From the IMG/VR virus record IMGVR_UViG_3300032167_000004, positions 96,001 through 160,000 of that record: a stretch of 64,000 nt of DNA; one strand, given 5' to 3'. Both the position numbers and the translations under genes were made by a program. Origin of the DNA: a virus. Its lineage: Duplodnaviria > Caudoviricetes. Shown here one piece after another: positions 60,838 through 64,000 of the stretch. The notes below the pieces were generated by a model that saw nothing but the letters and a program-made list of their open reading frames with translations, was not told where the DNA came from and ran no database searches. How positions within the stretch are numbered: the first letter of the stretch is position 1; each line of letters starts with the position of its first letter.

Positions 60838-62088
60838 ATGAGTTTATTACTTGAGTATTGCCAAGATTTAAATATATTAACTGAAGCTTTTTATGGTAAA
60901 CCTAAAGAGTTTATTGAAATTGAAAAAAGATTAGATAAAATTATTAATATGATTAAATTACAAAAAGAAAATCCCTCGATGGCTGTAGATATTAACAAAA
61001 TGAAAGAATTAGAGGAAATTGAAAATATTTTCACTAAATTCTTTAAAAATTATAAAACCTCTATTACATTTTATGCACCTATTATATCTCCTACTTATAA
61101 TGCATTTACATTTCCATCCACATTATCATATTTTAAAAAAGATCCAAATAATAAAAGAATTGCTAGTGTGGATGATCTATTTATAAATGTCAATGTTGAT
61201 ATGGGTCTTGTATATGCTTTAGATATGGATGCTAAGGAATTAATGGCTGTTATATTACATGAAATTGGACATTGCTTTGATGCCTCATTATTTATGTTGT
61301 TATCTAAGATTCAAATCATCGGCTCTATTAATTATGATCTCAATACAATGCATGTTAATAGTGTTAATATTAATGCTGTTAATTCTATTTATAGTACATT
61401 TATTAATTTAATTATTGGTGCATCCCCACTGTTACAGTCATTTTATCAAGAAATGAATAGATTTGTGTCTCAGAATCCTACACTTAATAAATTTTTAAGT
61501 GATATTCAAATGGTAATAGCAGATATTAGTACATTTTTGAACATAGTAAGCTTTTCATTAAAAAAGATAACTCCAGTGTTGTTGGTACAACAGTTACTAA
61601 ATCCTAGTAATGTGTTTGGTTATGCTAATGAAAAATTTGCAGATTCATTTGCAACGTCATATGGTTATGGAAAAGAAGTAGCAAGTTTTTCTTATAAAGT
61701 TCAACATAGAAAAGGTTTAACTATAAATGAAAATATTTCAAAAATTCCTTTATTAAATATCGGATACGATTTCTTAAAAGTTTCTATGCAACTTTCAACT
61801 ATAATTTTAGATCCTCATCCTCATGATGCTACAAGAATTCAGTCTCAGTTAAATAAATTAAAAAGAGATTTAAATAATCCTAATCTTGATTCTAAAGTTA
61901 AGAAAGAACTTCTTGATAATATTGTTGAGATGGAAAATTATATAGATAATATAGTATTAAATATTAATCATGAGGATAATAATGGTCGATGGATTACTTT
62001 GTTACAAAATTATATTATTATTAAAGTTTTTAAAGGTCGAATTGATCCTAGAGAATTATTTGAAGCTGTTTGGAATCATGAACTATAA
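60838..62088 (+). CDS. HExxH zinc-metallopeptidase-like protein (M48-like)
   Basis: YNAFT, ELMAVILHEIGH, EKFADSFA..YGYG, HP....RI. Confidence 0.7.
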   Translation: MSLLLEYCQDLNILTEAFYGKPKEFIEIEKRLDKIINMIKLQKENPSMAVDINKMKELEEIENIFTKFFKNYKTSITFYAPIISPTYNAFTFPSTLSYFKKDPNNKRIASVDDLFINVNVDMGLVYALDMDAKELMAVILHEIGHCFDASLFMLLSKIQIIGSINYDLNTMHVNSVNINAVNSIYSTFINLIIGASPLLQSFYQEMNRFVSQNPTLNKFLSDIQMVIADISTFLNIVSFSLKKITPVLLVQQLLNPSNVFGYANEKFADSFATSYGYGKEVASFSYKVQHRKGLTINENISKIPLLNIGYDFLKVSMQLSTIILDPHPHDATRIQSQLNKLKRDLNNPNLDSKVKKELLDNIVEMENYIDNIVLNINHEDNNGRWITLLQNYIIIKVFKGRIDPRELFEAVWNHEL

Positions 62089-62094
62089 AAATAA

Positions 62095-62126
62095 AGTGAG
62101 TATATGGCTAAAACCATATACTCACT
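62095..62126. terminator. Terminator hairpin
   Basis: AGTGAGTATATGG-CTAAAA-CCATATACTCACT. Confidence 0.7.
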
Positions 62127-62136
62127 AATAATAATC

Positions 62137-62318
62137 AAAAAAAAGATAACCGGTAAATTACCTGGTGTTTTACCGGTTATCCCCCTAGCAAACACACAAA
62201 AAAGGAAAAACTGATACCCAACAAAAAGAAAATCAACACGGAGGCTTTTATGAACAAGAAACTACAACCAATGCGTCCAAGCTCTTATCGATATTTTTAA
62301 CCAGGATTAATATCTTTT
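62137..62318 (-). ncRNA. Candidate ~180-nt small RNA
   Basis: AACA-N6-TA at 62318-62329, no evident minus-strand ORF, intrinsic terminator GATAACCGGTAAA/TTTACCGGTTATC + U8 at 62137-62181. Confidence 0.5.
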
Positions 62319-62369
62319 ACTTATTTGTTAATATATTAATAAAAAATAATTTACATTAAATGGAAAATA

Positions 62370-62390
62370 AAATATATATTATTATAGTAT
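62370..62390 (+). promoter_or_regulatory. Putative early promoter
   Basis: Identical to 6368-6388. Confidence 0.65.
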
Positions 62391-62431
62391 CATATGAGAA
62401 CGATACTCATTAAAACGGAAAGGAAAAAGAA

Positions 62432-63139
62432 ATGAAAAAGTATGAATTAACAAATGAAATTATTGAAGTCAATGGTCATATTCTTCATAGAATTATATCA
62501 TTGAAAAATTTCTTTAATGTTAAAATTGGTGATCTTGGTGGATTTGTAGAAAGTGAAAATAATCTTTGTCAAATTGATAATTCATGGATTGATAGTGAAG
62601 CATGTGTGTATGAAAATGCTAGAGTGTTCGATAATGCATATGTTTTCGATAAAGCAAAGATTTATGGTAATGCACATATTTTTGGATCTTCTATAGTTTT
62701 TGGTTATGCTACTGTACATAATAATGCTAAAGTATATAATCATGCATCTGTAGCTGGACATTCAGTAATATTTGGTGATGCTACCATTCAAGGTAGTGCT
62801 AGGGTTTTTGGTGATGCTAAAGTATTTGGTTTTGTAAATGTAACAGAAATGGCATCCGTTTTTGGAAAATGTAGTGTATCTGGACATGCAAGAATTAGAG
62901 ACATGGCTTCAGTATATGATCGTGCAATTGTTTCTGATGATGCAGAGATTATGCATAGTTCATCCGTGTATGGTAATGCTCAAGTGTATGGTAATGCTAC
63001 TATTAAAGGATGTTCTGAAATTACTGGAAATGTTAAAGTCTATGACCATGCTAGTATTGAAGGATTTACTAAAATATGTAATAATATGCATTATTGTAAT
63101 AATATGATTATTAGGGATGACAGAATAATTAATATGTGA
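62432..63139 (+). CDS. Hexapeptide-repeat (left-handed beta-helix) protein
   Basis: MKKYELT..GDLGG.VE.E.NL head then (A.V.G.)n repeats. Confidence 0.85.
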   Translation: MKKYELTNEIIEVNGHILHRIISLKNFFNVKIGDLGGFVESENNLCQIDNSWIDSEACVYENARVFDNAYVFDKAKIYGNAHIFGSSIVFGYATVHNNAKVYNHASVAGHSVIFGDATIQGSARVFGDAKVFGFVNVTEMASVFGKCSVSGHARIRDMASVYDRAIVSDDAEIMHSSSVYGNAQVYGNATIKGCSEITGNVKVYDHASIEGFTKICNNMHYCNNMIIRDDRIINM

Positions 63140-63146
63140 TTTAAAT

Positions 63147-63233
63147 AAAAAAGAAACCTTAATTGGTTTCTTTTTTTTTGTATGTTCCCGAAAAAAAATA
63201 AGAGAGTATATGGATATTTCCATATACTCTCTT
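63147..63233. terminator. Two terminators between convergent genes
   Basis: AAGAAACC-TTAATT-GGTTTCTT + T-run; AAGAGAGTATATGGA-TATT-TCCATATACTCTCTT. Confidence 0.8.
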
Positions 63234-63238
63234 TAGTA

Positions 63239-64000
63239 TTAAATTTTAATAAGTTTAACAGGAATACCAGTTTTCCCTGTACTAATCATTCTTTTACCTT
63301 TACTTAATCTAGGTAATTCTGCTAATTCCTCAGTATCAATAACTTCTACACTATTCTTACAATATAATTTAAATTTTTCATTACCTCTAATAGTCTGAAT
63401 TGTAAAGATACTATCACCATCATTCAATGTAATAATTCGCATAGGATCATTTGCTCTCTTTTTATTGACAAATGTATCAATAGGAGATTTCTTAACAACA
63501 CCATTATTAGTAATTACTAAGAGATATTTATCTTTAGGATTAATAATATCAAGACCAATGATTTCTTCACCATTATCTAAATTCATAGCTTTTACGCCAG
63601 AACTCATTCGTCCAGTTTCTCTAATTTCTTCAGAATTAAATCTAATTCCAAATCCATTATTGTTATATACTAAGATTTCAGATTCACCAAGCAATGTTTT
63701 TACACATACTAAACTATCATCATCTTTCACAATTAATCCTAATAATTCATTTCTCATATTAGTATACGCAGAGGCTAAAGTTTTCTTAATAAGACCATTC
63801 TTAGTAATCATTAAGAAATATACAGGATCTTTAATTTTTTCAATAATTTCATCTGTAGGTTTAACTTTTACAGTAACAATATTACCACTTAGATTGCTAC
63901 AGTATTCTTTCAATGAGTGACCTTCACTATTAAGAACACAACCCTGTACGTTGTATACTGATAACTTATTAATTTTACCATTATCTTCAAATAATAATAA
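63239..64000 (-). CDS. gyrA: DNA gyrase/topoisomerase II subunit A, C-terminal beta-pinwheel (partial)
   Basis: TKNGLIKK, GRMSSGVKAMNL, TNNGVVKK, PRLSKGKRMI blades; frame stays open to window edge. Confidence 0.82.
   Translation of the reverse strand, partial: LLLFEDNGKINKLSVYNVQGCVLNSEGHSLKEYCSNLSGNIVTVKVKPTDEIIEKIKDPVYFLMITKNGLIKKTLASAYTNMRNELLGLIVKDDDSLVCVKTLLGESEILVYNNNGFGIRFNSEEIRETGRMSSGVKAMNLDNGEEIIGLDIINPKDKYLLVITNNGVVKKSPIDTFVNKKRANDPMRIITLNDGDSIFTIQTIRGNEKFKLYCKNSVEVIDTEELAELPRLSKGKRMISTGKTGIPVKLIKI

What the first reader, a model, noticed from the sequence alone, without database searches (positions are those of the whole stretch)
62137..62329. Candidate late phage sRNA carrying a complete antisense to a ribosome-binding/start site
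Seen: a minus-strand AACA-N6-TA promoter motif (62318-62329) points into a gap with no evident minus-strand ORF, and that gap ends in its own strong terminator (13-bp stem + U8, 62137-62181), separate from the neighbouring gene's hairpin. The predicted RNA is very U-rich and contains UUUCUUGUUCAUAAAAGCCUCC, the exact complement of GGAGG-CTTTT-ATG AAC AAG AAA. On the + strand this reads as a well-formed RBS plus a 16-codon ORF (MNKKLQPMRPSSYRYF, 62250-62300). It also carries a second pyrimidine anti-SD-like tract (UUUUUCCUUUUUU). Inference: either a trans-acting translational silencer of host (or early phage) mRNAs, such as defence genes, or a cis-antisense pair with a micropeptide.
Basis: partly seen in the sequence, partly recalled or inferred. 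Interest (0 to 1): 0.72.

Follow-up and report, generated by a model that had tools for sequence, protein, structure and literature searches.

The report
Conserved late small RNA gene in jumbo phage
A giant gut phage carries a small gene of about 180 bases that makes no protein; relatives keep its start signal, stop signal, two mutually complementary hairpin loops and an exposed CCUCC motif, so it is probably a real, undescribed regulatory RNA whose target is unknown.

Summary
The minus-strand AACA-N6-TA site (62329-62318) is a top-tier match to this phage's own late-promoter motif: rank 16 of 527,502 positions, and the only one of the top 16 without a gene behind it. The 13-bp hairpin plus U8 (62181-62137) is a strong minus-strand terminator.

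Seven distinct relatives keep the same unit in the same gap, although the RNA body is too diverged to align. All eight versions share:
- a late-promoter-type motif (degenerate in L063);
- a stem-loop at the 5' end with CCUGRY in its loop;
- one or two CCUCC/CUCC motifs, mostly predicted unpaired;
- a terminator with unrelated stem sequences whose loop carries the complement of the 5' loop.

The two loops change together: CCUGAU/AUCAGG in L066 and CCUGGC/GCCAGG in L063 and L064.

The "complete antisense to an RBS/start site" is only the gene's own opposite strand. The 16-codon plus-strand ORF and its ATG are missing even from the closest relatives. There is no Rfam match, no conserved ORF on either strand, and no convincing target in the phage genome.

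Best reading: a new, independently transcribed late non-coding RNA, probably acting through its exposed anti-Shine-Dalgarno-like motif. Function is unproven. The scan had noted this same stretch once before, in an overlapping window.

The parts
62318..62329 (-). Late (non-virion RNA polymerase type) promoter AACAAATAAGTA. The predicted transcription start is the last A, at 62318.
   Evidence: The weight-matrix score is 17.6, rank 16 of 527,502 positions. The motif is enriched upstream of ORFs in this genome. The AR9 consensus is AACA-(6N)-TA/G with the last base as the start (PMC5312081). The motif is kept in 7 of 8 versions and is degenerate in L063.
62290..62314 (-). 5'-terminal stem-loop. 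Arms are GAUAUU (62314-62309) and AAUAUC (62295-62290). The 13-nt loop AAUCCUGGUUAAA has CCUGGU at 62305-62300.
   Evidence: A stem enclosing a CCUGRY loop lies within the first 5 nt of the RNA in all 8 versions. Two stem positions show double-sided changes: U-A / C-G / A-U and U-A / G-C / A-U. The stem is weak on its own here, -1.9 kcal/mol with z = -0.18.
62240..62244 (-). CCUCC motif (anti-Shine-Dalgarno-like), the candidate pairing seed.
   Evidence: CCUCC occurs in 6 of 8 RNA bodies and CUCC in all 8. The chance of CCUCC in a shuffled body is 0.004-0.07. The predicted unpaired probability is 0.99 here, and 0.95-0.99 in 5 of the 8 RNAs.
62198..62210 (-). Pyrimidine tract UUUUUCCUUUUUU.
   Evidence: Present in the window, L069 and L070 only. 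It is not a family-wide feature.
62137..62181 (-). Intrinsic terminator: 13-bp stem, 11-nt loop carrying ACCAGG (62166-62161), then U8 (62144-62137).
   Evidence: Energy -18.6 kcal/mol, z = -4.6. In all 8 versions the stems are unrelated in sequence, but the loop holds the complement of the 5' loop and a U-tail follows on the minus strand.
62085..62126 (-). Second hairpin directly after the M48 peptidase stop codon. Its U-rich tail here is on the minus strand only, so it may act as a back-up terminator for the small RNA or as the M48 terminator.
   Evidence: Listed as a minus-strand terminator. Energy -20.4 kcal/mol, z = -8.0. In L012 a single hairpin at this position carries the CCAGG loop and ends the unit.
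62250..62300 (+). 16-codon plus-strand ORF after GGAGG. Judged not to be a gene.
   Evidence: No ATG in L069, L070, L013 or L066. The equivalent is 6 codons in L012 and ATG-TAG in L063. The best plus-strand late-promoter score in this region is -0.8.

Best explanation
This is a real, independently transcribed, late-expressed non-coding RNA gene of about 180 nt, running from 62318 to about 62139 on the minus strand. It is made by the phage's own non-virion RNA polymerase from an AR9-type late promoter and ends at a strong intrinsic terminator.

The RNA has three parts:
- a stem-loop at its 5' end;
- a fast-evolving, U/G-rich body that displays one or two unpaired CCUCC motifs;
- the terminator hairpin.

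The 5' loop (CCUGGU) and the terminator loop (ACCAGG) are complementary and covary. They therefore probably pair, either within one molecule (closing and stabilising it) or between molecules (dimers or rings).

The most likely activity is base pairing of the exposed CCUCC, which has the same sequence as the 16S rRNA anti-Shine-Dalgarno core, with the ribosome-binding sites of target mRNAs late in infection. That would block their translation.

Shown here: the promoter quality, the terminator, conservation of the anatomy, and covariation. Inferred: transcription itself, the loop-loop pairing in RNA, and the anti-SD mechanism. Unknown: the targets.

My odds are about 0.75 that it is a genuine functional non-coding RNA, about 0.5 that the loops pair in the RNA, and about 0.3 that it works by anti-SD pairing.
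For: - Promoter: rank 16 of 527,502 and the only orphan among the top 16. The motif is validated genome-wide and matches the mapped AR9 late-promoter consensus and start site.
- Terminator: strong, with the U-tract on the minus strand only, here and in all relatives.
- Conservation: the same unit sits in the same M48-gyrA gap in L069, L070, L012, L013, L063, L064 and L066. Flanks are 74-88% identical, but the RNA body cannot be aligned. This is the usual pattern for small RNAs, with only functional modules kept.
- Loop-loop covariation: CCUGGU/ACCAGG in four versions, CCUGAU/AUCAGG in L066, CCUGGC/GCCAGG in L063 and L064, and CCUGGU/GCCAGG in L012. The last gives a U-G wobble on the minus-strand RNA but an A-C mismatch on the plus strand.
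- 5' stem: compensatory changes at two positions.
- CCUCC: enriched and mostly unpaired.
- No coding signal: no conserved ORF on either strand, and indels among the closest versions are not multiples of three.
- No known family: no Rfam match in the window or relatives.
- Stability in nature: the intergenic sequence is identical in 10 contigs from independent samples.
Against: - There are no expression data.
- Only eight versions (about six lineages) are available, so covariation rests on few events and has no formal significance test.
- The 5' stem is thermodynamically marginal in this phage (-1.9 kcal/mol, z = -0.18), and unconstrained folding does not choose it.
- Whole-RNA folding is not unusual compared with shuffles (z = -1.5).
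- The L063 promoter is degenerate (score 0.4).
- The unit is absent from other relatives (L065, L067, L068, L071 and all distant ones), so it is dispensable.
- No phage mRNA pairs better with it than with shuffled RNAs or the relatives' RNAs.
- Early and late phage genes do not differ in GGAGG use.
- A bare CCUCC would not discriminate among mRNAs, including the phage's own.
- GGAGG on the plus strand could have another origin.
Confidence: 0.55

Rival explanations
1. It is a self-assembling or scaffold RNA. CCUCC would then be a secondary feature or a binding site presented in many copies.
For: - Two hairpin loops with covarying mutual complementarity of 6-8 nt sit at opposite ends of the RNA.
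- Expression is late.
- There is precedent for intermolecular loop-loop pairing in phi29 pRNA (PMC2241910).
- There is precedent for RNA-only homo-oligomers held by kissing loops, including RNAs under 200 nt (PMC12286853; preprint 10.64898/2026.07.01.735769).
Against: - The loops could just as well pair within one molecule.
- There is no Rfam match to pRNA or to any ornate RNA.
- The body length varies from 146 to 272 nt with no conserved core, which fits poorly with a precise architecture.
- The unit is absent from close relatives, so it cannot be an essential assembly part.
Confidence: 0.12
2. It is a transcriptional by-product or insulator with no trans function. A late promoter and terminators between the convergent M48 and gyrA genes produce a short transcript whose role, if any, is local. 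It might stop read-through, interfere with M48 read-through by antisense transcription or dsRNA, or merely remain from a decayed gene.
For: - The unit lies between convergent genes in L013, L063, L064, L066 and L069.
- The M48 hairpin has no plus-strand U-tract in this phage, so M48 transcripts may read into the unit.
- AR9 has late promoters that drive antisense RNAs.
- The body evolves fast.
- The unit is dispensable in several relatives.
Against: This reading does not explain why terminator loops are conserved while their stems are replaced, why the two loops covary, why CCUCC is kept in otherwise unalignable bodies, or why a 5'-terminal stem is maintained by compensatory changes.
Confidence: 0.18
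3. The plus strand is the functional one. GGAGG is a real ribosome-binding site for a tiny peptide (16 aa here), and the minus-strand RNA is its cis-antisense regulator, as in a type I toxin-antitoxin pair.
For: GGAGG is conserved on the plus strand. An ATG lies 3-8 nt after it in 5 of the 10 motif copies.
Against: - The ORF is not conserved in presence, length or sequence, and the two closest relatives have no ATG.
- There is no plus-strand promoter in the gap (best late-promoter score -0.8).
- The peptides are not hydrophobic or toxin-like.
- The minus-strand mini-ORFs (20 codons from a GTG, no RBS) shift frame between close relatives.
Confidence: 0.04
4. The conserved palindromes are DNA-level elements, such as protein operators or recombination sites with CCWGG cores, and are not RNA structures.
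For: Both loops contain CCWGG-type cores. The gap is a hot spot for inserted accessory genes. A duplicated hairpin flanks the unit.
Against: - In L066 both sites changed to CCTGAT/ATCAGG. Neither is palindromic any longer, but they remain complementary to each other.
- The cores always sit in hairpin loops.
- The cores are only 6-8 bp.
- CCWGG is not under-represented in the genome: 135 observed against about 76 expected.
Confidence: 0.05

Closest known systems
AR9 late transcription units (non-virion RNA polymerase promoters AACA-(6N)-TA/G), including late promoters that drive non-coding or antisense RNAs (Lavysh et al. 2017, PMC5312081)
   Same: The promoter motif and start position are the same. 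The motif sits 20-40 nt ahead of many ORFs in this genome. Transcripts end at hairpin-plus-U terminators. AR9 also has late promoters not followed by a gene.
   Different: This phage is not a close AR9 relative: the flanking M48-like protein has no tblastn match among 50,697 phage records. No conserved, structured small RNA of this anatomy is described for AR9 in that paper.
C-rich-seed regulatory RNAs of Firmicutes (RsaE/RoxS; PMC6158497, PMC5419742)
   Same: It is a short RNA with its own promoter and an intrinsic terminator. Unpaired C-rich motifs in loops could pair with G-rich Shine-Dalgarno sequences. Sequence evolves fast outside the seed.
   Different: There is no sequence or structure homology (no Rfam hit). 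The seed is CCUCC, not CCCC/UCCC. It is encoded by a lytic jumbo phage and read by a phage polymerase. Targets are unknown. It also has complementary terminal loops.
phi29-family prohead RNA (pRNA; PMC2241910)
   Same: It is a phage-encoded RNA under 200 nt with two hairpin loops that are complementary to each other and covary among relatives whose primary sequence is otherwise poorly conserved.
   Different: There is no match to the pRNA model, no three-way-junction core and no conserved length. It is late and dispensable, whereas pRNA is an essential motor part. The host phage is a jumbo phage and not a phi29-like podovirus. Intermolecular pairing is not shown.
Naturally self-assembling bacterial and phage-associated RNAs (GOLLD, ROOL, OLE; manA motif) (PMC12286853; preprint 10.64898/2026.07.01.735769)
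   Same: They are non-coding RNAs, often in phages or prophages, and kissing-loop contacts are conserved.
   Different: Those families have elaborate conserved cores. Here only two hairpins and a short motif are conserved. There is no homology.

Membership tests
AR9-type late promoter (non-virion RNAP) | AACA-(6N)-TA/G motif with the last base as the transcription start | tested here: met
   AACAAATAAGTA at 62329-62318. The consensus comes from PMC5312081. The matrix score is 17.6, at about the 75th percentile of 48 ORF-proximal training sites, rank 16 of 527,502.
AR9-type late promoter (non-virion RNAP) | The motif is used as a promoter in this genome (positional enrichment ahead of genes) | tested here: met
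   39 sense against 7 antisense occurrences 20-39 nt upstream of ORF starts. Of the top 16 sites, 13 lie within 80 nt upstream of a gene.
AR9-type late promoter (non-virion RNAP) | A 5'-triphosphate transcript end at the predicted start late in infection | not testable with these tools
   No transcriptome data are available. The phage is known only from metagenomes.
Intrinsic (Rho-independent) terminator | Stable G+C-containing hairpin followed directly by a U-tract on the transcribed strand | tested here: met
   13-bp stem, -18.6 kcal/mol, z = -4.6, then U8. The same arrangement holds on the minus strand in all 8 versions. The plus strand has no U-tract.
RsaE/RoxS-type C-rich-seed sRNA | Homology to the family model | tested here: not met
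   No Rfam match at gathering score, and none in the gap at E-value 10 or below other than chance-level sraA/AniS hits over the two hairpins.
RsaE/RoxS-type C-rich-seed sRNA | Conserved unpaired C-rich motif able to pair with Shine-Dalgarno sequences | tested here: met
   CCUCC in 6 of 8 versions and CUCC in all 8, with unpaired probability 0.95-0.99 in 5 of the 8 RNAs. This concerns how it may work, not membership.
RsaE/RoxS-type C-rich-seed sRNA | Demonstrable target mRNAs with extended complementarity | tested here: inconclusive
   No phage target stands out above controls. The host genome is unknown, so host targets could not be tested.
phi29 pRNA | Match to the pRNA covariance model / three-way-junction core | tested here: not met
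   No Rfam hit.
phi29 pRNA | Two loops with covarying mutual complementarity | tested here: met
   Three exactly complementary loop pairs plus one wobble variant across 8 versions.
Type I toxin-antitoxin / micropeptide with cis-antisense RNA | Conserved small ORF with a ribosome-binding site on one strand | tested here: not met
   The plus-strand ORF is 16 codons here, 6 in L012 and 1 in L063, and is absent in L013, L066, L069 and L070. Minus-strand mini-ORFs lack an RBS and shift frame.

The most novel reading that the evidence does not exclude
The RNA assembly would soak up or mask Shine-Dalgarno sites and so reprogramme translation late in infection. That would be an RNA-only counterpart of protein tools such as T4 RegB, which inactivates early mRNAs at GGAG (recalled from memory, not checked here).
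Probability: 0.1. Interest if true: 0.8.

Novelty: new member of a known kind. Interest (0 to 1): 0.5.

Why it matters
Few small RNAs encoded by strictly lytic phages have been characterised, and I know of no conserved, structured one described for jumbo phages that use their own multisubunit RNA polymerases.

This locus is a compact, comparatively well-supported candidate. It has clear boundaries, a testable loop-loop interaction, and a conserved motif identical to the anti-Shine-Dalgarno core. If it acts on translation, it would show that these phages use RNA as well as proteins to control gene expression late in infection.

It also sits in an accessory-gene hot spot that holds an anti-defence gene (Tad3) in relatives, so a counter-defence role is possible.

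The practical limits are that the phage is uncultured and its host is unknown.

Tried and rejected
- Known RNA families: Rfam at gathering score on the whole window, and at relaxed E-values on the gap and on seven relatives, gave only chance-level, inconsistent hits. No tRNA or tmRNA was found.
- Similar DNA or protein in the 50,697-record phage collection: none for the locus or for the M48 protein.
- IMG/VR: only distant relatives that lack the unit. An exact-pattern scan of IMG/VR found nothing.
- GTDB genomes: a looser pattern scan returned 120 chance hits, and none had the second feature.
- Phage targets:
  - Whole-body duplex energies against 306 translation-initiation regions: the best was -34.3 kcal/mol, within the range of shuffled RNAs.
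  - Short-word BLAST: the longest complementary runs were 14-15 nt and none lay at a translation-initiation site of a properly oriented gene. One 14-nt run lies inside the M48 coding region at E = 0.14.
  - Seed-region duplexes against 489 SD-bearing starts were no better than seeds from other phages.
  - Cognate and non-cognate pairing to the neighbouring M48 and 384-aa gene starts did not differ.
- Early-gene shut-off idea: GGAGG use is similar in early (0.22) and late (0.17) genes.
- Coding potential: rejected on both strands.
- Full-length and 5'-module MAFFT alignments were not in structural register for the diverged versions. I therefore did not build a covariance model or use the pair-counting tool. 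Pair tables come from an anchored script.
- A second "orphan" late promoter at genome position 258729 turned out to precede a real gene that my crude gene caller had missed.

Full report
**Setting**

The window is positions 96001-160000 of a 263,786-bp IMG/VR virus record with 28% G+C. The record encodes an RNA polymerase beta-like subunit.

The finding lies in the 343-nt gap between two genes. One is an M48-like peptidase gene (60838-62088, plus strand). The other is a YdcK-like beta-solenoid gene (62432-63139, plus strand). A gyrase A gene follows on the minus strand and ends at 63239. G+C rises to 40% at 62150-62249, against about 25% around it.

The promoter motif is not an assumption carried over from another phage.
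- In this genome AACA-N6-T[AT] is concentrated 20-39 nt upstream of ORF starts on the coding strand: 39 occurrences against 7 in the opposite orientation.
- A weight matrix built from 48 such sites scores the candidate at 17.6. That is rank 16 of 527,502 positions on both strands.
- Thirteen of the top 16 sites lie within 80 nt of a gene start, and one is inside a gene.
- The only other apparent orphan precedes a real gene that my simple gene caller had mis-assigned.
- The plus strand of the gap has nothing comparable; its best score is -0.8.

In phage AR9 the late-promoter consensus is AACA-(6N)-TA/G, with the last base as the mapped start (PMC5312081). This places the start at 62318.

The terminator is strong. 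It has a 13-bp stem, an energy of -18.6 kcal/mol and z = -4.6, and U8 follows on the minus strand. It is oriented for the minus strand only. The scanning tool missed it because its loop is 11 nt. The tool did list the adjacent hairpin 62126-62095 as a minus-strand terminator.

**Relatives**

The M48 protein has more than 100 metagenomic homologues. I fetched the DNA around the closest ones and around more distant ones from IMG/VR and JGI.

Ten contigs from independent samples carry an identical gap. Seven distinct relatives (L069, L070, L012, L013, L063, L064, L066) carry a recognisable version of the unit in the same position and orientation.

In L013, L063, L064, L066 and L069 the unit lies directly between the convergent M48 and gyrA genes. 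The solenoid gene of this phage is therefore a later insertion next to the unit, with its own AR9-like early promoter (TATATTAT type).

The unit is absent from L065, L067, L068 and L071. It is also absent from the distant relatives examined (L014, L015, L018), where a single hairpin separates M48 from the next, convergent gene.

The flanks are 74-88% identical in nucleotides. In L012, L013, L063, L064 and L066, however, BLAST cannot align the RNA body. Only the promoter/5' region and the first hairpin align.

**Shared anatomy**

All eight versions share four features. The predicted RNA is 146-272 nt long.

1. A late-promoter motif, degenerate in L063.

2. A stem-loop starting within the first five bases, with CCUGRY in its loop.
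   - The stem shows double-sided changes at two positions. One position reads U-A in four versions, C-G in L013 and A-U in L012. The other reads U-A in six versions, G-C in L064 and A-U in L063.

3. A body carrying CCUCC (6 of 8 versions, two copies in L064) or CUCC (all 8).
   - The chance of CCUCC in a shuffled body is 0.004-0.07.
   - With the two end hairpins constrained, the motif is predicted unpaired with probability 0.95-0.99 in five of the eight RNAs. In L063 and L064 it sits in hairpin loops.

4. A terminator hairpin whose stem sequences are unrelated between lineages, but whose loop always contains the complement of the 5' loop. A U-tail follows on the minus strand.
   - The loop pairs are CCUGGU/ACCAGG (window, L069, L070, L013), CCUGAU/AUCAGG (L066) and CCUGGC/GCCAGG (L063, L064).
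   - L012 has CCUGGU/GCCAGG. This is a U-G wobble in the minus-strand RNA but an A-C mismatch in a plus-strand RNA.

Conserved loops on replaced stems are the reverse of what an ordinary terminator shows. The coordinated changes argue for pairing between the two loops.

A descriptor combining these features matches only this site in the whole genome, and only the expected loci among about 70 fetched loci.

**What it is not**

- It matches no Rfam family, in the window or in relatives, and is not a tRNA.
- It does not encode a conserved peptide. The plus-strand 16-codon ORF has no ATG in the two closest relatives. Elsewhere it is 6 codons, a bare ATG-TAG, or absent.
- Minus-strand mini-ORFs lack ribosome-binding sites and change frame between close relatives.
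- The "complete antisense to an RBS and start codon" is therefore just the opposite strand of the gene itself. Only the CCUCC part is under apparent selection.

**Function**

I could not find a target.
- Duplex predictions against the phage's own translation-initiation regions are no better than for shuffled RNAs or for seeds from other phages.
- Short exact complementarities are at chance level and wrongly placed.
- Pairing with the neighbouring gene starts shows no cognate preference.
- Early and late genes use GGAGG equally.
- The host is unknown.

The proposed mechanism is pairing of the exposed CCUCC with Shine-Dalgarno sequences. In that model the 5' stem and terminator give stability, and the loop-loop contact closes or multimerises the RNA. 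This rests on anatomy and on analogy with the C-rich-seed small RNAs of Firmicutes (PMC6158497, PMC5419742) and with phi29 pRNA (PMC2241910).

There are weak points.
- The 5' stem is only -1.9 kcal/mol in this phage.
- The overall fold is unremarkable.
- The covariation comes from few lineages.
- The element is dispensable in some relatives.

**Verdict**

The start-codon antisense and micropeptide ideas are not supported.

This is a new RNA family of a familiar general kind, with an unusual pair of covarying complementary loops. Interest is moderate: it is well delimited and testable, but it comes from an uncultured phage and has no known target.

Noticed in passing
window 62089-63239; L012:4234-5530; L065:2921-3885; L067:3228-4183; L068:2929-3634: The gap between the M48 peptidase gene and gyrA is a hot spot for accessory genes. 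It holds a YdcK-like beta-solenoid gene here and in L070, three small ORFs plus a 133-aa gene in L012, a 76-78-aa gene plus a Tad3 (anti-Thoeris) homologue in L065 and L067, and an M23 peptidase in L068. The plus-strand inserts examined (here, L012, L065, L067) sit behind AR9-like early promoters (ATATATATTAT).
   Followed up: partly
window 62095-62126 and 63200-63233: The hairpin core GAGTATATGG...CCATATACTC occurs exactly twice in the 264-kb genome. One copy follows M48 and the other follows gyrA, so they bracket the small-RNA unit plus the solenoid cassette. L069 and L070 have the same pair. This looks like a duplicated terminator left by insertion or recombination.
   Followed up: partly
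genome 159242-162554 (gyrA; only 63239-64000 lies inside the window): gyrA is split in this phage. Residues 13-184 and 186-798 of the L013 homologue map to two blocks separated by about 960 nt and in different frames (tblastn). Relatives have an uninterrupted gene of 795-807 aa. This is probably an intron or other intervening element.
   Followed up: partly
window 61043-61594: The middle of the M48-like peptidase gene is hypervariable. Relatives that are 78-88% identical in the flanks do not align here, which lowers whole-protein identity to about 50%.
   Followed up: no
window 63177-63199; L012:5468-5486; L063:3592-3606; L064:2893-2906: A short element, TATGTTCC(N)(G)AAAAAAA on the plus strand, is conserved next to the gyrA terminator in several relatives. 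On the minus strand it reads GGAACATA, directly after the terminator U-tract. Its function is unknown.
   Followed up: no
window 62351-62395: The plus-strand early-promoter-like sequence (TTTACA ... ATATATATTATTATAG) for the solenoid gene lies back-to-back with the small RNA's late promoter. The two divergent units would therefore be expressed at different times.
   Followed up: partly
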